A stretch of DNA of 43,091 bases from Flavobacteriales bacterium (GCA_947476515.1 CANJQZ010000001.1:1-43091), one strand, 5' to 3'. Counted from the first letter of the stretch, positions 23,957 to 38,113 are shown. The notes: generated from the sequence alone by a model not told the origin. Numbers and translations are program-made.

Positions 23957-24099
23957 TTAAAATTATGCTACGATTAATATAAAACTAGAATTACAATTTT
24001 TGCAAATAAGAAATGCAAGATAGTAAATATTTATGCAGTAGATACAAAAAACCCAATAAACTTCTCTATTTAATGTTCCTTTTATTATCTTTGGTCTCT

Positions 24100-25692
24100 A
24101 TGGTAAATAAAGATTTTGATGTAATTATTATTGGAGCAGGAATTAGTGGTCTAACTGCCGCCGCTTTACTTTCAAAATCTGGTCTTAAAGTTTGTGTATT
24201 AGAAAGGCACTATTTAATCGGAGGATATTTACAAGGATTCGATCGGCAAGATTTTGTATTTGACACAGCCATTCATTGGTTAAATCAGTGTGGTGAAAAC
24301 GGCACCGTTACAAAAGTATTCAAGTATTTAGGGGAAGATTTCCCTAAGCCAGTTACCATGAAATCGATTCACAAGCACATAACCAGTGATTATGAATTTG
24401 TTTTAACCAATAATCCTGAAATATTAAAAAATCAATTAATTCATGATTTTCCTCATGAAGAGAAAGGCATAGAAAAATTTTTTAAAGCTGCTCGAAAGGT
24501 TGCTGAAGTATCGAATAAATTTCCGAAATTTTTCATTAGCAATGAAGCAATGAGTGGTATTCGAAAATGGACTTTTAGCTTAAAACAATTGCATATTATT
24601 TATCCTCTCATTAAATATGCTTTGTACGGAGGAGAAAAAGGTGTAAAAAAAGGATTGAGAAAATTTTTCAAGGATGAAAGAATGTTGAATTTGTTTTGTT
24701 CGGAGCCAGATCTTCTTTCTTGTCTTTTTCCTATTGCATGGGCGTATAATCAAGATTATCAAAATCCACCTATAGGAGGAAGTAAGGTGATCCCTGCATG
24801 GCTTGAGTCGAAAATATCTAAAAATGGCTCTGAAGTTATATTGAGTGCAGAAGTAGTTAATATCGCTATTGAAAATAATGAATTCAGAGGTGTAACTTAT
24901 AAAAAAAGACACAAAGAATATTCTTTAACTGCAAGCCATTTAATCGCAGCTTGTGATATAGACACAGTATACAATAAACTTTTACCCCCTGCAGCAGTTC
25001 CTCAAAAGCTGAAAACAACCATAGATAATTCTGAGCTTTATAGTTCATCTCTTACTATTTCAATAGCGCTCAATTGTACTGCAGAATCACTCGGTTTTGG
25101 CGATGTAATGCTTTATGTTTTTAATGAGGAAACAGCCAGGACCGAACATATTTCAGGAGATCCGCACAAATCATTCATCAGTATTTTAGCGCCGACAGTA
25201 AGAGATAAAACATTAGCACCCGAAAATAAAGGCACTTTAAATATTTTTGTTCCTGCTTGGATGAATTATGAAGATAATTGGAAAACAACGATTAATGCAA
25301 AAGGAGAATTTGTTCGCACTGATGCGTATAAAAAATTAAAAGAAGATTTCGCTCAAATAATTTTTGAAAGAATTGAAGGTAAAATTTGTCCCAATCTAAG
25401 AGAGCATATACTTTTTTACGAGGTTGCAACTCCTATTACTTATCACAGATACACCCATAACAAAGATGGTTCTATGATGGGAACAAGGCCAGGAAAGGTA
25501 AATATGAAATCAAAAGTTGCTCATTATAAATCTCCTGTTAAGAATCTTTTCATTGGTGGACATTGGGCTGAACTTGGAGGTGGTGTCCCTATTGCGGTAA
25601 AAGCAGCTTATAATTCAAGCTTAATGGTACTAAAAGACTTAAACAAGAATGCCTATAAAGAGCTCTTGAAGTACCCAAAAACATGGCTTTAA
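24100..25692 (+). CDS. FAD/NAD(P)-binding oxidoreductase, phytoene-desaturase (CrtI)-like
   Basis: Rossmann motif DVIIIGAGISGLTAA. The ATG at 24100 puts it 7 residues from the N-terminus. An exact TAnnTTTG (TATCTTTG, 24086-24093) sits just upstream. The track start at 24013 would add 29 atypical residues. Confidence 0.75.
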   Translation: MVNKDFDVIIIGAGISGLTAAALLSKSGLKVCVLERHYLIGGYLQGFDRQDFVFDTAIHWLNQCGENGTVTKVFKYLGEDFPKPVTMKSIHKHITSDYEFVLTNNPEILKNQLIHDFPHEEKGIEKFFKAARKVAEVSNKFPKFFISNEAMSGIRKWTFSLKQLHIIYPLIKYALYGGEKGVKKGLRKFFKDERMLNLFCSEPDLLSCLFPIAWAYNQDYQNPPIGGSKVIPAWLESKISKNGSEVILSAEVVNIAIENNEFRGVTYKKRHKEYSLTASHLIAACDIDTVYNKLLPPAAVPQKLKTTIDNSELYSSSLTISIALNCTAESLGFGDVMLYVFNEETARTEHISGDPHKSFISILAPTVRDKTLAPENKGTLNIFVPAWMNYEDNWKTTINAKGEFVRTDAYKKLKEDFAQIIFERIEGKICPNLREHILFYEVATPITYHRYTHNKDGSMMGTRPGKVNMKSKVAHYKSPVKNLFIGGHWAELGGGVPIAVKAAYNSSLMVLKDLNKNAYKELLKYPKTWL

Positions 25693-25733: not shown

Positions 25734-28700
25734 ATGGGTAAGTTATTCGCAAATATTGTTCGCTATTTCATTTCAAAACCTTTATTTTTCTGGGTTTTGT
25801 TTTCAGGAATTCTTTTTATTTTAATTAATGGAATATTACGATTAAATATTAATGAGGACTTATATTCTGTATTTCCCAAAAGCCATGAATACAAAAAATT
25901 TAATACGCTAATTCAAGAAAATGCTATCAACAAACAAATTGTTTTTTCTATAGATGCAAGCGAAAATACCGATCTACTTGAAGAACAATTGGATCAATTA
26001 AAAACTGAACTTTCAAATAAATTTAAGCAAAGGATTAATGACATTACAATTTATAGAAATGTCGATGAAAAAAACTTAATTAACTATTTACAAAAAACAT
26101 CAGTTCTCTCACTCACAGAGAAGGATTATGATGAAATAGAGAGAAAACTAAATCAAGATTCAATTGAAGTTAAGTTAAAAAAGGTAGCTGAAAAGCTAAG
26201 AGGTGGGAATGGTTTCTTTTTGAAAAGTTTTTTTGCTCTTGACCCCTTAGGCTTAACTTTCCAACAAATAGATAAAGTAAAACCTAAGCAAGGGAAACAA
26301 TCTTATACTGTTAAAGACGGACTAATCTACACAAAGAACGAAAAGCGCATATTATTTTTCGGTTTCATCGCGGGTGATTCAAAGGACATTAAAATGCTAG
26401 ATGAACTCAATACAGATCTTAATAATTTTAAGAAAAGGATTAATATTAGAGCGAAAATAAATTTTGATTATTTCGGAACCTTTCAAATTGCAGTTGAAAA
26501 CGCAAATCAAGTCAAGGCCGACACTTATTTAACATCCTTTTTAAGTATTGGATTAATCATTTTACTTTTAGTAATTTATTACAAAAGTATACTTGCTCCA
26601 TTCTATTTTATTCTGCCGGCACTTTTCGGCATCTTAAGTGGCGTTGGAATGGTGGGATATATTGAACCCAACATAAGTGCCATATCTCTTGCAACATCCT
26701 CCGTTTTAATTGGAATCGTTTTGGATTATTCTTTCCATTTTTTCACCCATTATAAACACACAGGTGATTTACTATTAACAATAAAGGAAATTAGTTCACC
26801 AATGATTGTTGGCAGTTTTACAACCGTTGCTGCTCTAGCTGCTTTACTTTTTGCTGATTCAGTAATACTTCAGAATTTTGGATTGATTGCTCTTTTTACT
26901 TTAGTAGGTTCAGTGCTCTTTACACTTTTACTTCAACCTATATTATTTTCAATACTGAAACTAAAAATTCCTACTTCAACATTAAAGACTAAAAACAAGA
27001 AAACACCAAAACTATTTTTAAGATTAGGTTTCTTATTGGTAGGGATAATCACTTGCATGTCTTTGCTGACAGGCTTAAAAATTTCATTTGATGCAGATTT
27101 AAATAACCTTTCGTTTCATTCCAATGAATTGAAAGAAAAAGAAGATATTTTCACTGGAATTAATCCTGGGGAAGAAAAAAAATTCTACATCATTTCGTCT
27201 CAAAAATCATTCGAAAAGGGAAAAGAATCAAATTATCAAGTTTATGATTCCATCAATCGCTATCGCGAAAATTTAAAAATAAGCGAGTTCATTACCACAG
27301 CACCCTATTTACCACCCATTAGTAAAATAAATGCTTCTTATGAGAATTGGATTTCCTTTTGGTCATCCAAACAAGAAAATGTAAAAGCAAGCATAACTGT
27401 AGTTTCGAAAGACCTCAATTTATCAGAAAACGCCTTCAATCCTTTTTATAATTGGATGAAAAAAAATCCTTTTGACACATCACAAGGCAAGACTTTAATG
27501 GATGAAATTGGTTTGTCTAAACTTAGTTATTATAGCAATGGCAAACATACCTTTATCACAAGTATTGTTATTGAAAGAGATAAGTTACAGGAATGTAAAG
27601 ACCTGTTAAACACAATTCCACATATTTATATTTTAGATATTTCAGACATGACGGAACTGATGCTTAACTCCGTGCAAAAAGACTTTAATTTTTTACTTAT
27701 TTATTCAGCTCTTTTAGTTTTTCTTACTCTTTTATTAATTTATGGAAGAATTGAACTTGCTTTATTTGCCTTTTTACCTTTAATTCTTGGCTGGATATGG
27801 ATTTTAGGAATAACGAATTTTTTCGATATTAAATTCAATTTTGTAAATATCGTCATTACTACCTTTATCTTCGGTTTGGGAGATGATTTTAGTATTTTCA
27901 CTACAGACGGATTAATACAACAATTTAGGACTGGAAACGCGTCCTATAAATCATATCGATCAGCAATTGTACTCTCTGGATTGACGACAATATTTGGGAC
28001 GGGAGTGTTATTTTTTGCAAAACACCCTGCTATTCATTCGATAGCATTAATAAGTGTTGTGGGTATTTCTACGATAATGCTCATCACATTATTTCTACAG
28101 CCCTATATTTTTAACCTATTCGTTTTTAAGAGAATAAAGAAAAAAAGAAATCCCATTACATTTTTTACCTTACTTTTTAGCATCATTTTATTCTGTTACT
28201 TTTTTGTTGGAAGTATTGTTTTAACTCTTTTTCTAATAATCATTTTATTTCCACTTCCAATCAAAAAAGTAAAAAAACAAGCTTTTCTGAATTATCTCAT
28301 TTCTAAATTAGTAAAAACCGTTATTTATTTTGGCTTCCATCTTAAAAAACGCATATTTATCGACGAAATTGATTTTAAAAAACCTAAAATTATTGTTGCC
28401 AACCACACTTCTTTTCTTGATATTTTATTGGTCTTAATGATCCACCCAAAGACCATAATAATGGTGAAAAGTTGGGTCTACTATTCGCCGGTTTTTGGCT
28501 TATTTATTCGCTATGCAGGTTTTCCATATACGAAAGATGGGGCTTCAATGAATCTTGTTGAAATTCAAAAAAGAATTGATGAAGGATATTCTATCGTAAT
28601 ATTTCCAGAAGGAACAAGAAGTGTCGACGGAGAAATGAAGCGTTTTCACAAAGGGGCATTTTTTATGGCACAAGAACTTAAATTAGACATACAACCATTA

Positions 28701-29534
28701 TTATTAATTGGTGTACATGAGGCTAATCCTAGAAATGATATTTTAATTAGTCGCGGACAATTAATTATTAAAGCATTGGATTCAATTCCATATTCTGAAA
28801 AAGCAGATTATTCGGCAACGACCAAGGAAGTGAAGCAACTGATGACCGAAGGAATGCTTCATTGGAAAAAAGAACTTGCCAACATTGATTTCTGGGGACC
28901 TAAAGTCATTAATAATTATCTGCTAAAAGGCCCAATTTTAGAGTGGTATGTTCGAATTAAATGGATGCTAGAAAAGAAGCATTTTGCCTATTATGATCAA
29001 CTCATAAATGACCGGCAAAAAATATATGATTTAGGATGCGGTTATGGTTACCTTAGTTATTATCTACATTACCGGAATCAACACCGCCAAATAATTGGTG
29101 TTGATTATGATCAGGACAAAGTTGATGTAGCGAATAATTGTATAAAACAAAATAGTGGTTTAATATTCTTAAGCAATGATATAAGAGTTCAAAAAATTGA
29201 AAAATGTGATGTAGTATTTTTAAACGATGTGCTTCACTATTTACCTTTTAAAGATCAACAGGATATGCTTCAGAATATTGAGGTTAATTTAAATGAAAAT
29301 GGTATTATCTTTATACGAGATGGATTAAGTGAAAATCTAAAATCACATAAGAGAACAAAATTTACTGAGACACTCTCTACAAAGGTTTTTGGCTTTAACA
29401 AGGCTGGAAATCCTTTAGAATTTATCTCTGAAATTCAAATCAACGAATTCGCAAAAGAAAAAAATATGAGTATTGAAATTATTAAACACTCCAAAACGAC
29501 ATCGAATGTTTTGATAATATTACGAAAAAAATAA
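25734..29534 (+). CDS. trifunctional fusion: MMPL/RND-like exporter + PlsC-type lysophospholipid acyltransferase + class I SAM methyltransferase
   Basis: 1266 aa. The first ~800 aa contain two hydrophobic helix bundles separated by soluble loops. Then come HX4D NHTSFLD (28401-28421) and FPEGTRS (28602-28622), followed by SAM motif DLGCGYG (29028-29048). Confidence 0.85.
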   Translation: MGKLFANIVRYFISKPLFFWVLFSGILFILINGILRLNINEDLYSVFPKSHEYKKFNTLIQENAINKQIVFSIDASENTDLLEEQLDQLKTELSNKFKQRINDITIYRNVDEKNLINYLQKTSVLSLTEKDYDEIERKLNQDSIEVKLKKVAEKLRGGNGFFLKSFFALDPLGLTFQQIDKVKPKQGKQSYTVKDGLIYTKNEKRILFFGFIAGDSKDIKMLDELNTDLNNFKKRINIRAKINFDYFGTFQIAVENANQVKADTYLTSFLSIGLIILLLVIYYKSILAPFYFILPALFGILSGVGMVGYIEPNISAISLATSSVLIGIVLDYSFHFFTHYKHTGDLLLTIKEISSPMIVGSFTTVAALAALLFADSVILQNFGLIALFTLVGSVLFTLLLQPILFSILKLKIPTSTLKTKNKKTPKLFLRLGFLLVGIITCMSLLTGLKISFDADLNNLSFHSNELKEKEDIFTGINPGEEKKFYIISSQKSFEKGKESNYQVYDSINRYRENLKISEFITTAPYLPPISKINASYENWISFWSSKQENVKASITVVSKDLNLSENAFNPFYNWMKKNPFDTSQGKTLMDEIGLSKLSYYSNGKHTFITSIVIERDKLQECKDLLNTIPHIYILDISDMTELMLNSVQKDFNFLLIYSALLVFLTLLLIYGRIELALFAFLPLILGWIWILGITNFFDIKFNFVNIVITTFIFGLGDDFSIFTTDGLIQQFRTGNASYKSYRSAIVLSGLTTIFGTGVLFFAKHPAIHSIALISVVGISTIMLITLFLQPYIFNLFVFKRIKKKRNPITFFTLLFSIILFCYFFVGSIVLTLFLIIILFPLPIKKVKKQAFLNYLISKLVKTVIYFGFHLKKRIFIDEIDFKKPKIIVANHTSFLDILLVLMIHPKTIIMVKSWVYYSPVFGLFIRYAGFPYTKDGASMNLVEIQKRIDEGYSIVIFPEGTRSVDGEMKRFHKGAFFMAQELKLDIQPLLLIGVHEANPRNDILISRGQLIIKALDSIPYSEKADYSATTKEVKQLMTEGMLHWKKELANIDFWGPKVINNYLLKGPILEWYVRIKWMLEKKHFAYYDQLINDRQKIYDLGCGYGYLSYYLHYRNQHRQIIGVDYDQDKVDVANNCIKQNSGLIFLSNDIRVQKIEKCDVVFLNDVLHYLPFKDQQDMLQNIEVNLNENGIIFIRDGLSENLKSHKRTKFTETLSTKVFGFNKAGNPLEFISEIQINEFAKEKNMSIEIIKHSKTTSNVLIILRKK

Positions 29535-29538
29535 AGTA

Positions 29539-31071
29539 ATGACTCAGATCAAAAAATATGATTTTTTAATTGTTGGGAGTGGGATTGGCGGACTTTCTTC
29601 GGCAGTGATATTAGCCAAAAATGGCTATTCAGTGTTGGTTTTAGAAAAAAACAATCAAATTGGTGGTGCCTTACAAGTTTTTAGTCGTGACAAATGTGTT
29701 TTTGACACTGGTGTGCATTATGTGGGTGGTTTAGATCCCGGAGAAAATCTACAACGCATGTTTAATTACTTAGGGATTTATGACGCTCTTAAGTTAAAAT
29801 CTTTAGATCGTGATTGTTTTGATTTAATTCGTTTGCCAAACGGAGTTTCCTATCCTCATGGACAAGGATATGAAGCATTCAGTTCTCAACTTATTCAACT
29901 TTTTCCTGAGGAAGAAAAAGCAATTTTAGCATTTTGTGAAAAGATCAAGCAAATCTGTGATTTTTTTCCACTTTATAATTTAGAATTAGGTGATGATCAA
30001 GCATATTATAATAACCCTGAAATATTATCATTAGGTGCTTGGGATTTTATCAATTCCATTACCAATAATAAAATTCTGCGAACCGTTCTACTTGGATCAG
30101 GGCCTTTATATGCTGGTGATGAAAAAACAACTCCTCTTTATGTCGTTGCCCTAATAATGAATAGCTATATCAAAGGTAGTTATCGTTTAGTTGATGGTGG
30201 CTCACAAATTGCCAAACTTTTAGTCAAAGAATTAAGGAAGTATGATGGTGAAATACTAAAAAGAAAAGAGGTTGTTGGAGCAAATTACGGAAGTGATAAA
30301 AAAATTACTTCCGTAATTTGTTCTGATGGTATGGAATATGCCGCAAATAATTTTATTTCCAATATGCACCCCTCATTGACCATTGATATTTTTGGAAAAG
30401 ACAAATTTAGACCAGCATATCGTGATCGGGTTCAAAAATTACAAAATACCACCTCCTCATTAATGGTTTATTTTTCTTTAAAGGAGCATTCTTTTCCTTA
30501 TTTCAACTATAATATTTATGAGCATTTCTCTTATGATTGTTGGAATTCGATTAATGATAATTCAGAAAATTGGCCGCATACCTTATACCTCTGCACACCT
30601 GCTTCTTCCAAATCAGAAGAATTTGCTGAATCGGTATGTGTAATGTGCTATATGGATATAAAAGAGGTAAAGGAGTGGGGAAATACTTATAATACAGCAA
30701 TAGACCCTTCTGTGAGGAGCACCGCATACAATAAGTTTAAAAAAGAAAAAGAGGAACAAATTATTAAAAAATTAGAAACAAGGTATCCTAATTTTAGATC
30801 GTGTATAAAAAATGTTTATAGTTCTACCCCTCTAACTTATCGAGACTATATCGGAACACCAGAAGGATCCTTGTATGGAATAAAAAAAGACTTTAACAAT
30901 CCTATTGGAACTACCATTAATTCTAAAACACGCGTTCCAAATCTATATTTAACTGGTCAAAACCTAATTTTTCATGGAATATTAGGAGCAACAATTGGTG
31001 CTTTTGTGACCAGTTTTAATTTCGTAAATCACATTGAATTAATAAATAAAATAAAGGCATATGAAAAATGA
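29539..31071 (+). CDS. FAD/NAD(P)-binding oxidoreductase, phytoene-desaturase (CrtI)-like
   Basis: DFLIVGSGIGGLSSA Rossmann motif. Paralogous in layout to 24100-25692. Confidence 0.75.
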   Translation: MTQIKKYDFLIVGSGIGGLSSAVILAKNGYSVLVLEKNNQIGGALQVFSRDKCVFDTGVHYVGGLDPGENLQRMFNYLGIYDALKLKSLDRDCFDLIRLPNGVSYPHGQGYEAFSSQLIQLFPEEEKAILAFCEKIKQICDFFPLYNLELGDDQAYYNNPEILSLGAWDFINSITNNKILRTVLLGSGPLYAGDEKTTPLYVVALIMNSYIKGSYRLVDGGSQIAKLLVKELRKYDGEILKRKEVVGANYGSDKKITSVICSDGMEYAANNFISNMHPSLTIDIFGKDKFRPAYRDRVQKLQNTTSSLMVYFSLKEHSFPYFNYNIYEHFSYDCWNSINDNSENWPHTLYLCTPASSKSEEFAESVCVMCYMDIKEVKEWGNTYNTAIDPSVRSTAYNKFKKEKEEQIIKKLETRYPNFRSCIKNVYSSTPLTYRDYIGTPEGSLYGIKKDFNNPIGTTINSKTRVPNLYLTGQNLIFHGILGATIGAFVTSFNFVNHIELINKIKAYEK

Positions 31072-32278
31072 TTTTGATGTTGTAGTAATCGGTGCAGGTC
31101 CTGCGGGAACAATTGCAGCGTGCAAACTTATGAAAGAGGGATTCTCAGTGAAAATCCTTGAGAAGATGGAGTTCCCAAGATTTGTAATTGGAGAGAGTCT
31201 TTTACCCCATTCAATGGATTATTTAGATGAATTAGATTTGTTAAAATGTATTGAAGATCAAAAATTTCAATTAAAAACAGGTGCTTGTTTTTATCATAAC
31301 GAACAGCGTTGTGATTTTCTGTTTAAGGACCAATATACAAAAGGGTGGGATTATACTTTTCAAGTAAAAAGAGCTGATTTCGATAATGCATTAGCGACAG
31401 AAACAGCCAAAAAAGGAGCTGATATTGAATACAATGCTGAAGTTTTACTTGTTGAAAATGGTCCAACACAACAAGTAATAAAATATTTAAATGCACAAAA
31501 GGAAGAAATGAATTTATCCGCAAGATATGTTGTAGATGCAAGTGGATATGGGCGTGTATTGCCACGCATGTTTAATTTAGAAGTCAAAGTAGTAACCCCA
31601 CCAAGAGGAGCTATTTTTTCACATTTTGATGATAGTAAACGAACAGAAGAGGATGGTCGAAATATTTTTATTCATGCTTTCAATAACAATACTTGTTGGA
31701 TTTGGTCCATTCCATTTTCAGACGGAACAGCATCAGTAGGAATTGTAGGTGATGCTGCGATTATTACTCATTATGCTGAAAATGATGGTGCTGGCTTTAA
31801 GAAAATGGTGGCAGACTTTCCAGGTTTATCCGGAAGATATGATAATGTAGCTTACAAATTTGAACCTCGTGTTATTTTGAATTATGCTGTTTCGGTTAAA
31901 CAGTTATACGGAGAAGGTTATATACTCTGTGGTAATAGCACTGAATTTTTAGATCCTGTTTTTAGTTCTGGGGTAACACTGGCTATTTCATCTGGATTTA
32001 AAGCTGCAACAATGGTAAGTGAACATTTAAAAGGCAACGATGTTAATTTTGAAGACTATAGTACAGAGTTGAAAAAAGGTATTGATGTTTTTAGAAGCTA
32101 TGTGAATGGCTGGTATGATGGGACCTTACAAAAAATCTTCTTTTCTGAAAAGACTAATGAAGGGATGAAAAGTCAAATCTGCTCAGTTCTTGCCGGCTAT
32201 GTTTGGGATGAAACTAACCCATTTGTTAAAAAACATGCAAAAGCACTTAGCACTTTGGTGAAAATCATTGAAATGTAA
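31061..32278 (+). CDS. flavin-dependent halogenase (phenol/pyrrole-type)
   Basis: GxGxxG VVVIGAGPAGT, FPRFVIGESLLP segment, and the halogenase signature WxWxIP as W213-I-W-S-I-P218 (31697-31714). Confidence 0.7.
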   Translation: MKNDFDVVVIGAGPAGTIAACKLMKEGFSVKILEKMEFPRFVIGESLLPHSMDYLDELDLLKCIEDQKFQLKTGACFYHNEQRCDFLFKDQYTKGWDYTFQVKRADFDNALATETAKKGADIEYNAEVLLVENGPTQQVIKYLNAQKEEMNLSARYVVDASGYGRVLPRMFNLEVKVVTPPRGAIFSHFDDSKRTEEDGRNIFIHAFNNNTCWIWSIPFSDGTASVGIVGDAAIITHYAENDGAGFKKMVADFPGLSGRYDNVAYKFEPRVILNYAVSVKQLYGEGYILCGNSTEFLDPVFSSGVTLAISSGFKAATMVSEHLKGNDVNFEDYSTELKKGIDVFRSYVNGWYDGTLQKIFFSEKTNEGMKSQICSVLAGYVWDETNPFVKKHAKALSTLVKIIEM

Positions 32279-32281
32279 TCT

Positions 32282-32932
32282 TTATTTTGGTCCATACATT
32301 TTTTTCCAACTTTTATATTTGAAGTCTCTAATTGAAATGATTACATCATAATAGGTTTTTGCCCAATAGTTTCTGAGACCAAAACCACTTGGAAATGATG
32401 TAAAAGATTCACATAGAAGCACTTCATTGTTTGATAAATTTATAGCGACAAAATGGTACTTCGCTTCTTCTCTTGTTTTATCTAAATAGTCAGCAACAAA
32501 CAACAAACCAATGCCATCATTTTCTTCAAAATCGTATTTCTTTATAAAAAGGGCGATTTCTTCCTTACTATAATTCGGTTGGTTATCAGATTCCAAATCT
32601 TCAATAGAGGTGTTCTCATTAATTTTATTAATAGCAGAAATTTTCAAATTAACATTTTCCTTTCGAATCATTTCTGCAATGTTGTATTTCGGATATTCGT
32701 TGAGAATTAAATTATTCCAGCCATAGAAATATTTATCCCTAATTACAGATGTTCCTGTTCTACCTGCCTCAGAAAATTGAGAAAACTCACCAATCAATTT
32801 AACATGTGAGAAATCAATTCCTAACCATGTAATTTGAGTGTCAGATTTAGAAAATAAATCTTCTATTCTTTGAGTATTCCCCTTAAAACTAATTAAAGAA
32901 AATACTGCAATTAAGTAAACTAACTTTTTCAT
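32282..32932 (-). CDS. hypothetical secreted protein
   Basis: 216 aa with signal peptide MKKLVYLIAVFSLISF. It lies 11 nt downstream of the ligase gene on the same strand. No motif recognised. Confidence 0.5.
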   Translation of the reverse strand: MKKLVYLIAVFSLISFKGNTQRIEDLFSKSDTQITWLGIDFSHVKLIGEFSQFSEAGRTGTSVIRDKYFYGWNNLILNEYPKYNIAEMIRKENVNLKISAINKINENTSIEDLESDNQPNYSKEEIALFIKKYDFEENDGIGLLFVADYLDKTREEAKYHFVAINLSNNEVLLCESFTSFPSGFGLRNYWAKTYYDVIISIRDFKYKSWKKMYGPK

Positions 32933-32943
32933 AATTTCAAATA

Positions 32944-34197
32944 TTAAATAAATACTATTTTTTCTGGTTTTCGTAAATTCTTTTTATAAACTTGAGCTTG
33001 AATTATCTCTAATTCGTTAAATGTAAAAATAGGAATTACTTTCAACCTTGATTGACATTTTTCTATTATTATTTTATAAATATTGGTATCCAATATTTCT
33101 TTTTGTAAAAGAATCGTGATTTGATCATTTTGAAAATTATCCTTCGAAATAATGATTTTATAACAAGCTACTTCCTCAATATTATCAAAGATATCAAAAA
33201 GTGTTTGAGGAAAAATGGTGGTCCCTTTATATTTAATCATTTGATTTTTTCGACCAACAATAGGGCCCAATCTAGGAGCACTATTACCGCAAGAGCATTT
33301 TTGCATAAATCTTTTAGCAATATCCCCAGTTTTATACCGTAATAATGGAGTTCCGGTGGTTGCTATAGTGGTTATTACAATTTCACCTTCCTCTCCATCT
33401 CCAACTTCATTTCCATGTTCATCAACTACTTCAAGAAAGAGCAATTTTTCATTTAAATGGCAACCTTGTTGCGCATGGCATTCTGTAAATGCCGTTGCCA
33501 TTTCTGTACAAGCATAGGTCGAAAAAAGATTTACATCCCAATCATTTGTGATGCGTTTACCGAGAACATTAAGATGAAATGCATCATCACGGATTGATTC
33601 ACCAATACAAACAATTGATTCTACAGAAGTATCATGTAAATTAATTCCATGTTTCTTTGCGAAATCAATCAAAATCAAAATAAAACTAGGCACCGCAATT
33701 AATACTCTAGGCTTGTTATTTATTATCGATGACCACTGAAGCTCTGGTAAGCCAGGCCCGATTCTAATAATTCCAGCTTTCAATTCCTGAACTCCCAAAT
33801 AATAGGCAATTCCTGCCATAAATTGACGGTCAATTGTGGTCATTAATTGAACTAAATCACCTTCTCGTACACCAGCCAAGGATAGCGAATCTCTTTCATT
33901 TAATGCTAAGCGTTTTAAGTCAGATCTACTTAAATAAACTGTGACAGGATCTCCCATTGTTCCTGAAGTAGTAACAATATCAGCGATTTCAGTCATTGGA
34001 ACTGATAAAAAATCGAGATTGTTTTTAGCTATATCATCTTTTAAAGTGAAAGGTATGTTGCTCCATTCATGAAAACTTAAATCTTCTTGTTTAAAGTTAA
34101 TGCCACTTAATGATTTTTTGTAGTACTTTGAATTATGCAATACATAAGTCAATGTTTGCATCACTTCTTTGGGAATTAATTGTTGATTAGGCATCAT
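32944..34197 (-). CDS. PaaK-like adenylate-forming enzyme (phenylacetate-CoA ligase / F390 synthetase family)
   Basis: 417 aa, the short ANL format. AMP-binding core TTSGTMGDPV. Its start overlaps the stop of the C45 gene (ATGA). Confidence 0.7.
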   Translation of the reverse strand: MMPNQQLIPKEVMQTLTYVLHNSKYYKKSLSGINFKQEDLSFHEWSNIPFTLKDDIAKNNLDFLSVPMTEIADIVTTSGTMGDPVTVYLSRSDLKRLALNERDSLSLAGVREGDLVQLMTTIDRQFMAGIAYYLGVQELKAGIIRIGPGLPELQWSSIINNKPRVLIAVPSFILILIDFAKKHGINLHDTSVESIVCIGESIRDDAFHLNVLGKRITNDWDVNLFSTYACTEMATAFTECHAQQGCHLNEKLLFLEVVDEHGNEVGDGEEGEIVITTIATTGTPLLRYKTGDIAKRFMQKCSCGNSAPRLGPIVGRKNQMIKYKGTTIFPQTLFDIFDNIEEVACYKIIISKDNFQNDQITILLQKEILDTNIYKIIIEKCQSRLKVIPIFTFNELEIIQAQVYKKNLRKPEKIVFI

Positions 34198-35885
34198 TTA
34201 TTTTTAAATTGACATTCCTTTTTTAGATTTTCAAGTTCCATTTTAATTTTCAAAGAAGCTAAATTTTTAGTTAATGCATTGGCAAACATTTTATTTGCAG
34301 CACTCGAATTTCCTTTCTTTAAATAATACTTACCTAACATTTCAAATGTCACAAAAGATTCCTTATTGTTGTTGACAAATTCCTTTATTTCATGTGATGA
34401 TAACTTTAAATCAGTACCAAATAAAAGAAATTGACTGATTCGTTTTTTAGTGGCTTTAAAGGCTTTAAATTTCTTATATTCCTTAGAAAATAAAAATTCA
34501 GAAGAACTCAAACGATGCGTAATGGTTCCTTTCTTCGATTCAAATGTTTTATTTAAATCGTAACCAATAAATTCCCCTAATTGATAATTGCTTGTTGAAA
34601 TATAGAACATGGAACTTTTCGGCAAAATAATTACACTATGATGTGCAATTAACTGATTTATAGCGCGTGGATTTCCCATTCCTAAAGTATCATTCTTAAA
34701 ACCATTTTGATCTCTTAAGATGGATAAAACATTATTGAGAGAGAAAACATTGCGGGCAGATAACAACTCTCCTACTCTATTAAAACGAAACTTACTATCA
34801 CTTTCCTTAATATTTGAAATATTTACCTTGTCGTTAATAAAAGTAGCGGATTGATAATGATTGGAACAAACTAATTTACTTTGTTTAGAATCATACACAC
34901 CCAATTTGGTCGGTGATTTTTCTATTAAAACAGCTCTTTTGTCCAATGAAGAACCAATCATAAGCGTTTCAGAAACAAAAGTATGCCTCTTTTTTGCAAT
35001 AGCAACAGCTTCCTCAATTGTTGAAGCATATTGTAAAATTTCACGCGCTAAAATTGAAATTGGCATTTTTGCCCCACTTGGCAAATCAGATTTAGAGGCA
35101 TTAATTGTAACACTTAATCCCTTTTCATTCAGGCCAGATAATACGCCTGTAAATCCTGCCCATGAATAAGAAGCAAAACTAAATCCCTTTGATGGATTAA
35201 CAAACAATATCAACTTATCGTGAGCAAATTCATCTCCCACATAAAAATCAAAGTTTCTTCCAATCATCAAATTACTGTCTGCAGTCAGCTCATCTTTCAA
35301 TGCAAAAGAAGTACATCCAACAATGCTATAATCATTTAATGCATGACCAATGTCATGGGCAGCATGATAGTTTAATATTCTAGTGTATTTTGAAGCGATA
35401 TAATCATAACGACTAGAAAAATATTGAGAAATTCCATAAATTTCTTGTTGATTTTCTAAGGGTATGTTTTTTGGTAATTCAGAAATAAACAAACCTATAA
35501 ACAAGCGTAAAAATTGTTGCATAAAATTGCTAGGGACAAAATTATTTATTTGATTAACAAAAATATCCTCTTGTCTTTGAATCAATTCTTTTGATAATTC
35601 ACCATAAATAAGGCCTCTTTCATAAGGATCACCTTCGATGTACATCTCCCAAATGCCGAATTCGTTTTTTTTAAGATAATTATTTTTTAAGACATAATGA
35701 TTATCTGAAATCTTAATGCGCTTACCGATATTAAAATGCTCAACAATTGGAGGATCAATTTCTGCATTTAATATTAAATATAAGATTGCAAGGCATAATA
35801 CAAAGAATATTTGTTCTATTGAGATTAAGATGAATGTTATAACATATCTTAAAATCAAATTAACATAAAATAATACTCTACTCAT
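34194..35885 (-). CDS. membrane-anchored C45-family Ntn acyltransferase/hydrolase (acyl-CoA:6-APA acyltransferase-like)
   Basis: Gly-Cys self-processing/nucleophile context YSIVG-C200-TSFAL (Cys codon 35313-35315, track numbering). N-terminal TM helices and a C-terminal TPR-like tail. The track start at 35912 is TTG; the first ATG is at 35885. Confidence 0.65.
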   Translation of the reverse strand: MSRVLFYVNLILRYVITFILISIEQIFFVLCLAILYLILNAEIDPPIVEHFNIGKRIKISDNHYVLKNNYLKKNEFGIWEMYIEGDPYERGLIYGELSKELIQRQEDIFVNQINNFVPSNFMQQFLRLFIGLFISELPKNIPLENQQEIYGISQYFSSRYDYIASKYTRILNYHAAHDIGHALNDYSIVGCTSFALKDELTADSNLMIGRNFDFYVGDEFAHDKLILFVNPSKGFSFASYSWAGFTGVLSGLNEKGLSVTINASKSDLPSGAKMPISILAREILQYASTIEEAVAIAKKRHTFVSETLMIGSSLDKRAVLIEKSPTKLGVYDSKQSKLVCSNHYQSATFINDKVNISNIKESDSKFRFNRVGELLSARNVFSLNNVLSILRDQNGFKNDTLGMGNPRAINQLIAHHSVIILPKSSMFYISTSNYQLGEFIGYDLNKTFESKKGTITHRLSSSEFLFSKEYKKFKAFKATKKRISQFLLFGTDLKLSSHEIKEFVNNNKESFVTFEMLGKYYLKKGNSSAANKMFANALTKNLASLKIKMELENLKKECQFKNK

Positions 35886-35966
35886 CTTGTTGCAAAAATA
35901 CGCTATTAACAAAAATTCTCACTACGGTTTACTAATAAATATAATGTTCTCAGAGAAGCTATTTAA

Positions 35967-35987
35967 AGGAAATGTATACATTTTCCT
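35967..35987. promoter_or_regulatory. candidate operator upstream of the C45-ligase operon
   Basis: 14-bp perfect palindrome AAATGTATACATTT (35970-35983), extended by AGG/CCT with a 1-nt bulge. It lies about 85-100 nt upstream of the ATG at 35885. Confidence 0.3.
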
Positions 35988-36185
35988 CAATAGATTTGAA
36001 GCATAAAAAAGGGAATTTTTCAATATTACATTCCTTATGTCACTCCTGAATATTACATTGAAGAAGTGAAAAGTAGGTTAAATTAAATACCTGAATTCAG
36101 ACAGCCAAATCAGCAAAAAAAATCAAGCATCTATACTGATGTTATTGACCAGAACTAAAATATTAATTTCTATTAAAATGAATGA

Positions 36186-36860
36186 TTAACTGGCTAGAAA
36201 AGACAAGATAAATAAGAACAAGCCTGCACCTAATGTTACTAAACCTGCAACCAAGAACGCCGAATTATAAGATGACTGCAGGTAAGTCCCTGTATAAGCA
36301 TCATAATAGATATTACCCGCATTGAAGATCCAAAGCCAGAATGAAATTATCAATAAAACCAAAGAAACACCTGTCAAAATAATAGCAAGCTTAAGAATTA
36401 TAGACATTCTCCTTCTAGGGGTAAGCGCTTTAAATTTTTTGATTTTTGAGACTTCTTTCTTAATCTCACTTTTAATTGTCGATTTCGACATCTTGTTGAT
36501 TTCTCTTAAAGTCAACTGTTTGTCTAGAGGAGCAATAATTTGAATTTCACTACCCTCAAGATTCACTTCTGAATTTTCGTTATCAATATTTAAATCACCT
36601 GATTTATTACTTGATGCTTCAGCAGTAATGTTACCTTCAAAATTGTTGGTGCTTAAGGACTTGTTTTCAGCTTCTACATAAACATTAGATTCATTTAAAT
36701 CCATATTTGCTGTTTCGAAACTGTTGTTATTTGCAGCTGATTTATGTTTAAATTCTACGAAATAACCATTTTTATCAATACGCTTATGAAGGGTACAAGA
36801 AGAAATAAAAAGTAATGATAAAATTAATACCAGTGAATTGTTAATGCATTTAAGAGCCAT
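36186..36860 (-). CDS. hypothetical membrane lipoprotein
   Basis: Signal peptide with lipobox-like FISS-C21. Asn/Ser/Glu-rich low-complexity middle. Two C-terminal TM helices. Confidence 0.5.
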   Translation of the reverse strand: MALKCINNSLVLILSLLFISSCTLHKRIDKNGYFVEFKHKSAANNNSFETANMDLNESNVYVEAENKSLSTNNFEGNITAEASSNKSGDLNIDNENSEVNLEGSEIQIIAPLDKQLTLREINKMSKSTIKSEIKKEVSKIKKFKALTPRRRMSIILKLAIILTGVSLVLLIISFWLWIFNAGNIYYDAYTGTYLQSSYNSAFLVAGLVTLGAGLFLFILSFLAS

Positions 36861-37171: not shown

Positions 37172-38113
37172 ATGTTTCGTTCCTACGGATATATCATAGT
37201 TTTAGTTGGTTATTCTGGATTTGCATTTTCGCAACTTTCCCAAGATTGGGCGATGAGTCAACTGTTATCTTATTCAAGCACAGGTTATGATATTGTAAAT
37301 CAATTTCATAAAAATGGGAGATCCATTTCCTATGGTGGAAACTCCACCTCTTCCAGTATGCATCATTTGGAATTTTGTGAATTAAAAGATGTCAAAAGCT
37401 TTTTAAATTCAATATCTACAACGGTTCATGAAACAACCCATGCTTTTGATAGCCAAATTCCCTATATGCGCTCAAAACAAGGGGAAAATATCCCTAACTT
37501 ATCTAAATCAGAAGGCTTTTATATCAATGAATTCCTTAGTTACAGCTATAATTACCCTAGCACTAAGCTATTCCCTAGTATTGAATTAGCGCATGCAATT
37601 CCAGAATCACTTCAAACCTTAAGGTATAAAACATACATTATCGCACAGCCCTCACAATCAACTCAAAGCAGTGGCATTATAGGCTTAATGGAAGAATTTA
37701 ATGCCTATTATCATGGAACAAAGGTCATTTATGATCTCTACCCATTATTTCAGCAGGAATATACAACAAGTGTTTATTGGGCCTGGCCAACTAGCTTCAT
37801 TAGTAACGCTGATGCATTCTACGAGTTCGACTTCTTTATTAAAGAATATCTTCTTTATGCTAAAACAAACCATCCCGAACTTTATGAGGAATTGCATAAC
37901 GATTATACCTTCAGGACTATTTATCAAACAATTAGAAAACAATTTAAAGAATTAATCACACAATATGAAAAAAAGTATGATGTACTTACCAAAACCAAAT
38001 ATGGAGGAGTGACAACAAATAAACACAGTGAAATTTATACTGTACTTTCAAAGCAAATTGAATCTGAAAGATACCAAGTAATCGTTGCGGATTTTCTTGG
38101 ACAAGTCAATTAA
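37172..38113 (+). CDS. hypothetical secreted protein with HExxH motif (possible zinc metallopeptidase)
   Basis: N-terminal hydrophobic signal. H86-E-T-T-H90 at 37427-37441. No further family recognition. Confidence 0.4.
   Translation: MFRSYGYIIVLVGYSGFAFSQLSQDWAMSQLLSYSSTGYDIVNQFHKNGRSISYGGNSTSSSMHHLEFCELKDVKSFLNSISTTVHETTHAFDSQIPYMRSKQGENIPNLSKSEGFYINEFLSYSYNYPSTKLFPSIELAHAIPESLQTLRYKTYIIAQPSQSTQSSGIIGLMEEFNAYYHGTKVIYDLYPLFQQEYTTSVYWAWPTSFISNADAFYEFDFFIKEYLLYAKTNHPELYEELHNDYTFRTIYQTIRKQFKELITQYEKKYDVLTKTKYGGVTTNKHSEIYTVLSKQIESERYQVIVADFLGQVN

What the first reader, a model, noticed from the sequence alone, without database searches (positions are those of the whole stretch)
32282..35912. 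Coupled PaaK-like adenylating enzyme and membrane-anchored C45 (isopenicillin-N-acyltransferase-like) enzyme at the cluster edge
A 563-572-aa protein has N-terminal TM helices, a Gly-Cys200 Ntn self-processing context (IVGCTSF) and a TPR-like tail. It is translationally coupled (ATGA at 34194-34197) to a short ANL-type ligase (TSGTMGDP). An unknown secreted protein follows 11 nt later. The pairing of an aryl-acid CoA ligase with a C45 acyl-CoA-dependent acyltransferase is the logic of the last steps of penicillin G biosynthesis: phenylacetyl-CoA ligase plus IAT. Here it could do one of three things. It could activate 4-coumarate for loading, since no classical 4-coumarate-CoA ligase is visible in the window. 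It could transfer the aryl-polyene acyl group onto its acceptor at the membrane. Or it could be an independent, undescribed acyl-transfer system next to the cluster. An upstream palindrome and direct repeats (see the 35913-36185 finding) suggest separate regulation.
Basis: inference. Interest (0 to 1): 0.65.

Follow-up and report, generated by a model that had tools for sequence, protein, structure and literature searches.

The report
Known flexirubin genes flxW, flxY, flxG
These three genes are the already-described flxW (self-cleaving C45 enzyme), flxY (4-coumarate-CoA ligase) and flxG-like genes of a flexirubin pigment cluster; what this work adds is sequence evidence that FlxW works outside the cytoplasm, so it probably does not use the CoA ester that FlxY makes.

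Summary
In detail: three co-directional minus-strand genes sit at the edge of a flexirubin cluster.

- **C45 protein (34194-35885/35912):** it passes the C45 HMM cut-offs, and its model matches isopenicillin-N acyltransferase. The Gly-Cys site and catalytic residues are conserved.
- **Ligase (32944-34197):** it overlaps the C45 stop (ATGA) and passes NCBIfam's FlxY equivalog cut-off narrowly.
- **216-aa gene (32282-32932):** it starts 11 nt after the ligase stop and is a conserved cluster gene at the flxG position.

The pair is not new. It is flxW/flxY of Chitinophaga pinensis (Cpin_1875/1877; Fjoh_1076/1075). FlxY was shown in vitro to be a 4-coumarate-CoA ligase. FlxW was proposed, without a test, to join the polyene to dialkylresorcinol.

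In 80 Bacteroidota genomes flxY follows flxW in 63.

The penicillin-like idea of a ligase feeding an acyl-CoA acyltransferase is not supported:
- 84 of 88 FlxW relatives begin with an export signal or anchor.
- Some orthologs in the same gene context are lipoproteins.
- Other relatives are fused to MMPL exporters or a PlsC acyltransferase.

I conclude that FlxW is probably a periplasm-facing enzyme acting late on lipid-bound aryl polyene. This is unproven.

Interest is low to moderate.

The parts
34194..35885 (-). flxW ortholog: membrane-anchored C45 Ntn proenzyme, 563 aa from the ATG at 35885. The mechanical ORF extends to a TTG at 35912 (572 aa).
   Evidence: Pfam AAT 77 bits and NCBIfam C45_proenzyme 212 bits. 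The AlphaFold2 model (pLDDT 79.7) matches isopenicillin-N acyltransferase 2x1c at E 3.9e-13, target TM 0.73. It is 42.6% identical to the C. pinensis YS-16 FlxW.
35769..35882 (-). N-terminal hydrophobic helix (residues 2-39), read as a signal anchor
   Evidence: Hydropathy and the AlphaFold2 helix. 84 of 88 family representatives have such a segment, with net charge +2.4 before it and -0.7 after it.
35313..35318 (-). Gly190-Cys191 codons (Gly199-Cys200 in 572-aa numbering): predicted autoproteolytic site and catalytic nucleophile
   Evidence: Cys is present in 85 of 88 divergent representatives, and the preceding residue is Gly in 70 and Ala in 15. The N-terminal Cys of the NAAA beta-subunit aligns here. 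The model has low pLDDT at residues 185-188, just before the site.
34203..34484 (-). C-terminal helical, TPR-like tail (residues 468-561)
   Evidence: Helices in the AlphaFold2 model. The family profile matches designed TPR proteins at E 1.4e-6 for positions 507-549. Pfam TPR hits occur in fused relatives.
34194..34197 (-). ATGA overlap of the flxW stop (TGA) and the flxY start (ATG)
   Evidence: Read directly from the sequence.
32944..34197 (-). flxY ortholog: PaaK-like ANL ligase, predicted 4-coumarate-CoA ligase (417 aa)
   Evidence: NCBIfam FlxY_rubin equivalog 525 bits against a cut-off of 520. Best solved relatives are phenylacetate-CoA ligases, 4r1l at E 2e-35. It is 43.6% identical to the C. 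pinensis FlxY ortholog, whose activity was shown in vitro (PMC3992019).
33946..33969 (-). ANL P-loop TSGTMGDP (residues 77-84)
   Evidence: Motif search. YACTE at 228 and GRKNQM at 315 are also present.
32282..32932 (-). flxG-like exported protein (216 aa) of unknown function
   Evidence: No Pfam, NCBIfam or PDB sequence match. The confident AlphaFold2 model (pLDDT 89) has no significant PDB fold match. Gln21 is invariant just after the hydrophobic stretch. Homologs occur in 28 of 80 flexirubin loci, either after flxY or between the dehydratase and the thioesterase, which is the flxG position.
35893..35900 (-). Bacteroidota -7-type promoter motif TAttTTTG, 8 nt upstream of the ATG at 35885
   Evidence: Pattern search. 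This is one consensus match, not proof of a promoter.

Best explanation
The three genes form the flxW-flxY-flxG-like transcription unit at the edge of a flexirubin-type pigment cluster. The source is a freshwater bacterium, most likely of the family Crocinitomicaceae.

FlxY is the starter-activating enzyme. It converts 4-coumarate, made from tyrosine by the cluster's FlxA ammonia-lyase, into 4-coumaroyl-CoA. This activity has been shown for the C. pinensis ortholog and is inferred here by orthology.

FlxW is a C45 N-terminal-nucleophile proenzyme. It is predicted to cleave itself between Gly190 and Cys191. The N-terminal fragment would stay tethered to the inner membrane by its signal anchor, and the catalytic domain would face the periplasm. 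This is inferred from family-wide export signals and from lipoprotein-type orthologs.

There is no CoA or acyl carrier protein in the periplasm. So FlxW most likely acts late, on aryl polyene already attached to a lipid and exported by the cluster's MMPL/PlsC protein. It would form a Cys191 thioester and then either pass the acyl group to its final acceptor, the dialkylresorcinol, or release it from the carrier. That step is inference.

The tight flxW-flxY linkage would then reflect a shared operon, not substrate hand-over. The flxG-like protein is an exported accessory protein of unknown role.
For: **Identity and context**
- FlxA, FlxB, LolA2, DarB, DarG and DarH all pass NCBIfam equivalog cut-offs in the window.
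- The ligase passes the FlxY cut-off.
- The published gene tables list the C45 gene as flxW/Fjoh_1076, beside flxY/Fjoh_1075.
- FlxY biochemistry is in PMC3992019.

**C45 fold and catalytic set**
- The model matches isopenicillin-N acyltransferase at E 3.9e-13.
- C191, R210, N211, D213, N342, H343 and R391 are at least 95% conserved in 88 representatives at 25-50% identity.

**Export of the catalytic domain**
- 84 of 88 representatives start with basic residues followed by a hydrophobic stretch: one segment in 62, overlapping windows split in two in 22. Net charge is positive before it and negative after it.
- P0248 (LLISSC|G) and P0285 (FFGAC|S) have lipoprotein signals, and P0295 has a cleavable ASG|QQ signal.
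- P0248 and P0285 keep all catalytic residues and sit in the canonical FlxV-FlxW-ligase context.

**Link to the late steps**
- C45 is fused to MMPL exporters in three representative clusters, two of them with 4 and 9 members. It is fused to a PlsC acyltransferase in Planctomycetota and to a polysaccharide deacetylase.
- The frequent gene order is GT-MMPL/PlsC-FlxV-FlxW.
- After isopenicillin-N acyltransferase, the closest folds are the CoA-independent lipid amidases acid ceramidase and NAAA.
Against: - The only biochemically characterised C45 enzyme matched here, isopenicillin-N acyltransferase, uses acyl-CoA.
- FlxW's most constant neighbour is the cytoplasmic ligase: 63 of 80 loci, often with overlapping codons. 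A ligase is also nearby in clusters outside Bacteroidota.
- The window protein's own hydrophobic stretch is unusually long (about 38 aa, with Glu24-Gln25 in the middle). It could be a hairpin that leaves the domain in the cytoplasm.
- One C45-GT2 fusion has no membrane helix between the domains. It is a single partial protein on a 2.5-kb contig.
- Counting helices in the MMPL fusions is not decisive, because the window's own MMPL-PlsC protein also has an extra helix.
- No dedicated topology or signal-peptide predictor was available.
- A second candidate for the ester-forming step, the BtrH-like DarH, is in the cluster.
- The published Azoarcus arcuflavin gene tables list a BtrH-like gene but no C45, although two genes there are unannotated.
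Confidence: 0.5

Rival explanations
1. Penicillin-like coupling. FlxY makes 4-coumaroyl-CoA. FlxW sits at the cytoplasmic face of the membrane, takes that CoA ester onto Cys191 and loads the starter onto an acyl carrier protein or ketosynthase. FlxW would be a starter-unit transacylase.
For: - flxY lies directly downstream of flxW in 63 of 80 loci. In 28 of them the gap between the two protein matches is at most 100 nt, and the genes overlap in the window. The pair stays together even when it is away from other cluster genes (L007, L019, L034, L035, L043, L059, L078).
- A ligase is also near C45 in clusters from other phyla.
- C. pinensis has a holo-ACP synthase gene between flxW and flxY.
- Isopenicillin-N acyltransferase is acyl-CoA dependent (established knowledge), and it is the best fold match.
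- Proteobacterial aryl-polyene clusters load the ACP directly with ApeH, and their published descriptions mention no C45 (PMC8253772). A CoA-to-ACP transfer step would therefore be specific to FlxY-type pathways.
Against: - Family-wide export signals, and lipoprotein-type orthologs in the same gene context.
- Fusions to exporter and lipid-attachment proteins rather than to initiation enzymes.
- About 8 of 80 FlxW orthologs have no ligase within 10 kb and stand alone.
Confidence: 0.2
2. FlxW is a periplasmic hydrolase rather than a transferase. The ester with dialkylresorcinol is made in the cytoplasm by the BtrH-like DarH from ACP-bound polyene. FlxW trims or releases a lipid or acyl group from an exported intermediate, much as the periplasmic Ntn hydrolase PvdQ removes the acyl chain in pyoverdine maturation (from established knowledge, not tested here).
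For: - DarH (BtrH_N + DUF4872) passes its NCBIfam equivalog cut-off and sits in the dar locus.
- A BtrH-like gene is also in the Azoarcus dar locus, and no C45 is listed there.
- The fold neighbours acid ceramidase and NAAA are hydrolases.
- The non-Bacteroidota C45 loci have no dar genes within 10 kb.
Against: - No substrate is known.
- Whole-genome presence of dar genes in the non-Bacteroidota organisms could not be checked.
- C45 enzymes can both hydrolyse and transfer.
Confidence: 0.2
3. FlxW is a general envelope amidase or peptidase unrelated to the pigment, and lies next to the cluster only by descent.
For: In L001, L003, L038, L044, L062 and L074 no other window gene is recognisable near the full-length ortholog (43-64% identical). 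In L004 and L030 only a generic reductase or ABC ATPase hit appears. In the five loci scanned with Pfam, the neighbours are unrelated genes: DUF2461, SIMPL, AsnC, OmpA, an M43 peptidase, a metallo-beta-lactamase and QueA.
Against: At least 71 of 80 loci carry other flexirubin genes next to it. The fusion partners are all aryl-polyene-cluster proteins. The same linkage is seen in other phyla.
Confidence: 0.05

Closest known systems
FlxW / FlxY of Chitinophaga pinensis (Cpin_1875 / Cpin_1877) and Fjoh_1076 / Fjoh_1075 of Flavobacterium johnsoniae (Schoener et al. 2014, PMC3992019)
   Same: Same two families, same order (C45 then ligase) and same cluster. Identity to the C. pinensis YS-16 orthologs is 42.6% (FlxW) and 43.6% (FlxY), similar to FlxV at 45%. 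The ligase passes the FlxY equivalog cut-off.
   Different: Here the two genes overlap directly, whereas C. pinensis has a holo-ACP synthase (flxX) between them. The unit is inverted relative to flxU-flxV and converges on them. A flxG-like gene follows flxY instead of lying between flxF and flxH.
Acyl-CoA:isopenicillin N acyltransferase (PDB 2x1c/2x1d/2x1e), MEROPS family C45
   Same: Best structural match, at E 3.9e-13 and target TM 0.73 over both subunits. It has the same Gly-Cys self-cleavage site and the same N-terminal Cys nucleophile.
   Different: Only 16-18% identical. FlxW adds an N-terminal membrane anchor or export signal of about 50 aa and a TPR-like tail of about 100 aa. Isopenicillin-N acyltransferase is a soluble peroxisomal enzyme that uses acyl-CoA (established knowledge), whereas FlxW is predicted to be outside the cytoplasm.
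Phenylacetate-CoA ligase PaaK (PDB 4r1l, 2y4n, 2y4o)
   Same: Same short ANL architecture and core motifs. It is the best solved relative, at E 2e-35.
   Different: It scores far below the PaaK equivalog cut-offs: 140 bits against 646, and 175 against 700. The orthologous FlxY prefers 4-coumarate (PMC3992019).
Acid ceramidase and N-acylethanolamine acid amidase (PDB 5u81, 6dxw, 6dy3)
   Same: Next-best fold matches, at E 4e-10 to 7e-8. The family profile aligns the N-terminal Cys of the NAAA beta-subunit with Cys191. These are self-cleaving Cys-Ntn enzymes that act on lipids without CoA, outside the cytosol.
   Different: They are eukaryotic lysosomal hydrolases. There is no pathway or genomic relation.
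ApeH of proteobacterial aryl-polyene clusters
   Same: It performs the same pathway step as FlxY, activating the aromatic starter.
   Different: ApeH loads the ACP directly, without a CoA ester, and the published descriptions of those clusters mention no C45 (PMC8253772).

Membership tests
C45 autoproteolytic acyltransferase/hydrolase (Pfam PF03417 AAT; NCBIfam NF040521) | Profile HMM score above the curated cut-off | tested here: met
   PF03417 77 bits against 23.2. NF040521 212.4 bits against 85, covering residues 93-433.
C45 autoproteolytic acyltransferase/hydrolase (Pfam PF03417 AAT; NCBIfam NF040521) | Ntn-hydrolase fold like isopenicillin-N acyltransferase | tested here: met
   AlphaFold2 model with pLDDT 79.7 and pTM 0.80. 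Foldseek against 2x1c gives E 3.9e-13, target TM 0.73 and 391 aligned columns.
C45 autoproteolytic acyltransferase/hydrolase (Pfam PF03417 AAT; NCBIfam NF040521) | Conserved Gly/Ala-Cys cleavage site with Cys as the new N-terminal nucleophile, plus conserved Arg/Asn/Asp partners | tested here: met
   Cys in 85 of 88 representatives, preceded by Gly in 70 and Ala in 15. R210, N211, D213, N342, H343 and R391 are at least 95% conserved.
C45 autoproteolytic acyltransferase/hydrolase (Pfam PF03417 AAT; NCBIfam NF040521) | Actual self-cleavage and acyl-enzyme formation | not testable with these tools
   This needs protein expression and mass spectrometry.
FlxY, the flexirubin 4-coumarate-CoA ligase (NCBIfam NF053551 equivalog) | Score above the equivalog cut-off | tested here: met
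   525 bits against 520, which is a narrow pass.
FlxY, the flexirubin 4-coumarate-CoA ligase (NCBIfam NF053551 equivalog) | Lies in a flexirubin cluster with the tyrosine ammonia-lyase FlxA and next to FlxW | tested here: met
   FlxA 806 bits against 700 at 21360-22895. flxW-flxY adjacency in 63 of 80 genomes.
FlxY, the flexirubin 4-coumarate-CoA ligase (NCBIfam NF053551 equivalog) | ANL core motifs | tested here: met
   TSGTMGDP at 77, YACTE at 228 and GRKNQM at 315. The alignment to PaaK 4r1l covers residues 12-380.
FlxY, the flexirubin 4-coumarate-CoA ligase (NCBIfam NF053551 equivalog) | Preference for 4-coumarate with formation of the CoA thioester | not testable with these tools
   Shown only for the C. 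pinensis ortholog, with a 121-fold preference over cinnamate (PMC3992019).
Phenylacetate-CoA ligase PaaK (TIGR02155 / NF041878) | Score above the equivalog cut-off | tested here: not met
   139.8 bits against 646.3, and 175.3 against 700. The ligase is PaaK-like in architecture only.
Penicillin-type two-enzyme module (aryl-CoA ligase feeding an acyl-CoA-dependent C45 acyltransferase) | Both enzymes in the compartment that holds CoA, so that the acyl-CoA can be handed over | tested here: not met
   This is a sequence-based prediction, not an experiment. 84 of 88 FlxW relatives have an export signal or anchor. Orthologs with lipoprotein signals sit in the same gene context. The window protein's own 38-aa hydrophobic stretch leaves some doubt.
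Flexirubin biosynthetic gene cluster | Aryl-polyene type II synthase genes plus dialkylresorcinol genes plus export genes in one locus | tested here: met
   FlxA, FlxB, LolA2, DarB, DarG and DarH are above their cut-offs. Several ketosynthases, an MMPL-PlsC-methyltransferase protein, a GT2 and a deacetylase are also present.
TPR repeat proteins | Recognisable TPR repeats | tested here: inconclusive
   Pfam gives no TPR hit for the window protein at E 0.01. The family profile matches designed TPR proteins at E 1.4e-6 over about one repeat. The model shows five C-terminal helices.

The most novel reading that the evidence does not exclude
The last acyl transfer of flexirubin assembly happens outside the cytoplasm. 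FlxW, tethered to the periplasmic face of the inner membrane, would take the aryl polyene from an exported glycolipid-type carrier onto Cys191 and pass it to dialkylresorcinol. That would be a CoA-independent role for a C45 enzyme. It would also explain why flexirubin clusters keep the whole lipid-attachment and export gene set of aryl-polyene-lipid clusters.
Probability: 0.25. Interest if true: 0.6.

Novelty: new member of a known kind. Interest (0 to 1): 0.3.

Why it matters
Flexirubins are widespread outer-membrane pigments of Bacteroidota and are used as a taxonomic marker. Their early steps are known, but the steps that join the polyene to dialkylresorcinol and deliver it to the outer membrane are not.

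The pair flagged here is not a new system. It does, however, include the one cluster enzyme (FlxW) whose proposed role has never been tested. The sequence evidence that FlxW is exported narrows what it can do, because it rules out CoA- or ACP-dependent chemistry. It also turns the open question into simple experiments: a topology reporter, a deletion with LC-MS, and a test for self-cleavage.

If FlxW proves to be a periplasmic acyl-transferase, pigment assembly would be split across the inner membrane. The related aryl-polyene clusters in other phyla that carry MMPL-C45 and PlsC-C45 fusions would then gain an explanation too.

Tried and rejected
- A single-sequence search of the C45 protein against PDB sequences found nothing. 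A family profile and a fold search were needed.
- An 86-sequence alignment (A2) was too divergent for the locus scan. A 32-sequence alignment (A3) worked.
- I counted membrane helices in the MMPL-C45 fusions to fix the topology and rejected the result as not decisive. The window's own MMPL-PlsC-methyltransferase protein also has an extra hydrophobic helix (823-841) after TM12, although its C-terminal domains must be cytoplasmic.
- The sigma-70 promoter and terminator scan gave fewer promoter-like sites than shuffled sequence (21 against 29) and no useful terminator. That consensus does not suit Bacteroidota.
- Literature searches for flxW, Fjoh_1076 and flexirubin plus esterification found nothing beyond the 2014 paper.
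- The 216-aa protein has no Pfam, NCBIfam or PDB sequence hit and no significant fold match.
- Metatranscriptome evidence is too thin to show co-transcription: seven short low-depth contigs.
- I considered classing the ligase as a true PaaK and rejected it on the equivalog scores.
- Whether FlxW tracks dialkylresorcinol genes genome-wide could not be tested.

Full report
**What is there**

The region holds three co-directional ORFs on the minus strand.
- ORF 1 spans 34194-35912 (572 aa from a TTG).
- ORF 2 spans 32944-34197 (417 aa). Its ATG overlaps the stop of the first ORF in the sequence ATGA.
- ORF 3 spans 32282-32932 (216 aa) and starts 11 nt after the second stop.

The first ORF most likely starts at the ATG at 35885 (563 aa). 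Homologous gene calls have that length. A Bacteroidota -7-type motif, TAttTTTG, lies at 35900-35893, inside the TTG extension.

**Family assignments**
- ORF 1 matches Pfam AAT (77 bits, cut-off 23) and NCBIfam C45_proenzyme (212 bits, cut-off 85).
- ORF 2 matches AMP-binding and passes the NCBIfam equivalog 'flexirubin biosynthesis putative acyl-CoA ligase FlxY', though narrowly (525 bits against 520).
- ORF 2 scores far below the cut-offs for true phenylacetate-CoA ligases. Its best solved relatives are PaaK structures, 4r1l at E 2e-35.
- ORF 3 matches nothing in Pfam, NCBIfam or PDB sequences.

**Context**

The window is a flexirubin cluster.
- FlxA tyrosine ammonia-lyase, FlxB, LolA2, DarB, DarG and the BtrH-related DarH all pass their NCBIfam cut-offs.
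- There are several ketosynthases and chain-length-factor-like proteins, a thioesterase, dehydratases, a polysaccharide deacetylase and a GT2.
- There is a 1266-aa MMPL-PlsC-methyltransferase protein, a FlxV-type reductase and a halogenase.
- Genes beyond 35912 have no counterpart in 80 related loci. The finding therefore does sit at the cluster edge.
- The DNA occurs in many lake and freshwater metagenomes.
- The closest named relatives of the C45 protein are from Crocinitomicaceae and Fluviicola, at 60-67% identity.

**Already known**

Schoener et al. 2014 (PMC3992019) defined the C. pinensis cluster flxA-flxY.
- flxW (Cpin_1875) is annotated 'peptidase C45 acyl-CoA:6-aminopenicillanic acid acyl-transferase'. 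flxX is a holo-ACP synthase and flxY (Cpin_1877) is the ligase.
- In F. johnsoniae, Fjoh_1075 (ligase) and Fjoh_1076 (C45) are adjacent.
- The authors purified FlxY and showed it forms 4-coumaroyl-CoA, with a 121-fold preference over cinnamate.
- They suggested, without a test, that FlxW connects the aryl-octaene to the dialkylresorcinol.
- I found no later paper that mentions flxW or Fjoh_1076.
- The window proteins are 42.6% (FlxW) and 43.6% (FlxY) identical to the C. pinensis YS-16 orthologs, in line with FlxV at 45%.

The remark that no 4-coumarate ligase is visible arose because FlxY is not a plant-type 4CL.

**Structural checks of the C45 assignment**
- An AlphaFold2 model built on 21 homologs has pLDDT 79.7 and pTM 0.80.
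- It matches precursor and mature isopenicillin-N acyltransferase best: 2x1c at E 3.9e-13, target TM 0.73 and 391 aligned columns.
- Next come acid ceramidase and NAAA, which are self-cleaving Cys-Ntn lipid amidases.
- A family profile aligns the N-terminal Cys of the NAAA beta-subunit with Cys191.
- Among 88 full-length representatives at 25-50% identity, Cys191 is present in 85. The residue before it is Gly in 70 and Ala in 15.
- R210, N211, D213, N342, H343 and R391 are at least 95% conserved.
- The tail (residues 468-561) is helical and resembles roughly one TPR repeat.

Self-cleavage itself cannot be tested here.

**Co-occurrence**

A scan of one genome per species found at least 576 genomes with a relative. 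The best 80 loci are all Bacteroidota.

I scored them with the window's proteins.
- flxY lies downstream of flxW on the same strand in 63 of 80 loci and is divergent in one.
- Of the 16 loci without it, only two are cut short downstream.
- The gap between the two protein matches is at most 100 nt in 28 loci and 100-1000 nt in 30.
- FlxV lies directly upstream in 39 loci and the MMPL/PlsC protein in 35.
- The common order in Chitinophaga is deacetylase-LolA2-dehydratase-GT-MMPL/PlsC-FlxV-FlxW-FlxY.
- In Dyadobacter the unit is FlxW-FlxY-FlxG-like-FlxJ, followed by the dar genes.
- In seven loci the pair stands alone.
- In about eight loci a full-length FlxW ortholog has no recognisable flexirubin gene nearby; the five scanned with Pfam have unrelated neighbours.

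The pair is therefore part of flexirubin clusters and not an independent system. flxY is flxW's most constant neighbour. This count is inflated by the 13 Dyadobacter species, which share one arrangement.

**The third gene**
- Homologs of the 216-aa protein (27-50% identity) occur in 28 of the 80 loci.
- They lie either after flxY or between the dehydratase and the thioesterase. That is the place of flxG, a 'hypothetical protein' in C. pinensis.
- The alignment has an invariant Gln21 right after the hydrophobic stretch. This fits the signal-peptidase Q-rule known for Bacteroidota, which I state from my own knowledge.
- The model is confident (pLDDT 89) but has no significant PDB match. The weak hits, at E 3e-3 or worse, are all envelope lipoproteins.
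- I conclude it is an exported accessory protein of unknown role.

**Where FlxW works**

Several lines point to an exported catalytic domain.
- 84 of the 88 representatives begin with a few basic residues followed by a hydrophobic stretch: one segment in 62, overlapping windows split in two in 22. Net charge is +2.4 in the 15 residues before it and -0.7 after it. By the positive-inside rule this puts the domain outside the cytoplasm.
- Some representatives replace the anchor with a canonical lipoprotein signal (P0248 LLISSC|G, P0285 FFGAC|S) or a cleavable signal (P0295 ASG|QQ).
- P0248 and P0285 keep every catalytic residue. They sit in the canonical FlxV-FlxW-ligase context with overlapping genes.
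- Natural fusions join the C45 domain to MMPL exporters (three representative clusters, two of them with 4 and 9 members), to a PlsC acyltransferase in Planctomycetota, and to a polysaccharide deacetylase. Each keeps a hydrophobic helix just before the C45 domain.

Some points weaken the inference.
- One C45-GT2 fusion has no helix in between, but it is a single partial protein on a 2.5-kb contig.
- Helix counting in the MMPL fusions is not decisive.
- The window protein's own 38-residue hydrophobic stretch could in principle be a hairpin.
- No dedicated topology predictor was available.

I put the chance that the catalytic domain is periplasmic at about 0.75.

**Consequence for the mechanism**

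If FlxW is periplasmic it cannot use 4-coumaroyl-CoA or an ACP-bound acyl group. The penicillin analogy of phenylacetyl-CoA ligase plus isopenicillin-N acyltransferase then fails on compartment.

The fusion partners and the upstream neighbours are the late lipid-attachment and export genes. In Proteobacteria these build and export an aryl-polyene glycolipid: the polyene is esterified to GalNAc-phosphate-diacylglycerol, and ApeM, ApeL and ApeN are proposed for transport (bioRxiv 10.1101/2020.12.19.423268; PMC8253772).

The best-supported reading is that FlxW acts late on lipid-bound polyene through a Cys191 thioester. It would either pass the acyl group to dialkylresorcinol or release it. Which of the two is open, for three reasons.
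- The cluster has a second candidate for the ester step, the BtrH-like DarH.
- Azoarcus makes a polyene-resorcinol ester with a BtrH-like gene and no listed C45, although two genes there are unannotated.
- The C45-containing clusters from other phyla show no dar genes within 10 kb.

**The strongest counter-argument**

The ligase linkage persists outside Bacteroidota.
- L081 and L082 carry LolA, an MMPL::C45 fusion, an unknown gene and a FlxY-type ligase (32% identical to the window's).
- L085 carries C45, a radical SAM gene and a different ANL ligase.
- Proteobacterial clusters load the ACP directly with ApeH, and their published descriptions mention no C45.

This keeps the starter-loading rival alive, at about 0.2.

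**Expression**

One lake metatranscriptome gives a few short, low-depth contigs on flxW (34594-34849) and the flxG-like gene. This shows some transcription but says nothing about operon structure.

**Verdict**
- The pair is an ortholog of described genes, so it is a new member of a known kind.
- What is added here is the sequence-based prediction that FlxW is exported, its recurrent fusions to export and lipid-attachment proteins in other phyla, and the placing of the 216-aa gene as a conserved cluster member.
- Interest is low to moderate. It rests mainly on FlxW being an untested enzyme in an unfinished pathway.

Noticed in passing
window 35957-36092: The 273-nt region upstream of flxW holds a direct repeat, AATATTACATT twice (36022-36032 and 36049-36059, 27-nt spacing). 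It also holds an imperfect 14-nt palindrome at 35963-35990 (79% complementary). This could be a regulator site. I did not check its conservation in related loci.
   Followed up: partly
window 6485-7495: DarH has BtrH_N plus DUF4872 domains and passes the NCBIfam DarH equivalog (462 bits against 300). It sits between DarG and an ABC transporter. As an ACP-dependent acyltransferase type, it is a rival candidate for joining the polyene to dialkylresorcinol.
   Followed up: partly
window 25734-29534: A 1266-aa triple fusion of an MMPL exporter, a PlsC acyltransferase and a methyltransferase (FlxU type). It has an extra strongly hydrophobic helix at residues 823-841, after the twelfth MMPL helix.
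   Followed up: partly
window 31061-32278: A flavin-dependent halogenase-like gene at the flxK position (Trp_halogenase 78 bits). It overlaps the end of flxV by 11 nt and converges on the flxG-like gene with a 3-nt gap. It hints at a chlorinated pigment.
   Followed up: no
window 24013-25692 and 29539-31071: Two paralogous CrtI/amine-oxidase-like flavoproteins (559 and 510 aa). Only the second is the usual FlxV neighbour of flxW. The first recurs in 21 of 80 related loci.
   Followed up: no
window 36186-36860 and 37172-38113: Two ORFs just beyond the cluster edge (224 and 313 aa) have no Pfam or NCBIfam match and no counterpart in any of the 80 related loci. The 224-aa one has a lipoprotein-like start (LLFISSC) and two C-terminal hydrophobic helices. 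Metatranscriptome contigs map on it.
   Followed up: partly
L081 10001-14107, L083 4845-7385 (also P0369, P0376, P0358): In higher-GC organisms (56-67% GC), including Planctomycetota, the FlxW-type C45 domain is fused to an MMPL exporter, a PlsC acyltransferase or a polysaccharide deacetylase. These fusions lie inside aryl-polyene-type clusters.
   Followed up: partly
L085 10001-21483: In a 67% GC contig the C45 gene is followed by a B12-binding radical SAM gene and an ANL ligase. After these come a xanthine-dehydrogenase-type molybdoenzyme and beta-oxidation-like genes. This differs from the flexirubin layout.
   Followed up: no
window 22907-23956: The FlxJ-family methyltransferase match is well below its equivalog cut-off (436 bits against 560), so this methyltransferase may differ in function from C. 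pinensis FlxJ.
   Followed up: no
window 828-1871: A TIGR03032-family protein (337 bits against 251.5) lies at the other end of the window, outside the recognisable cluster genes.
   Followed up: no
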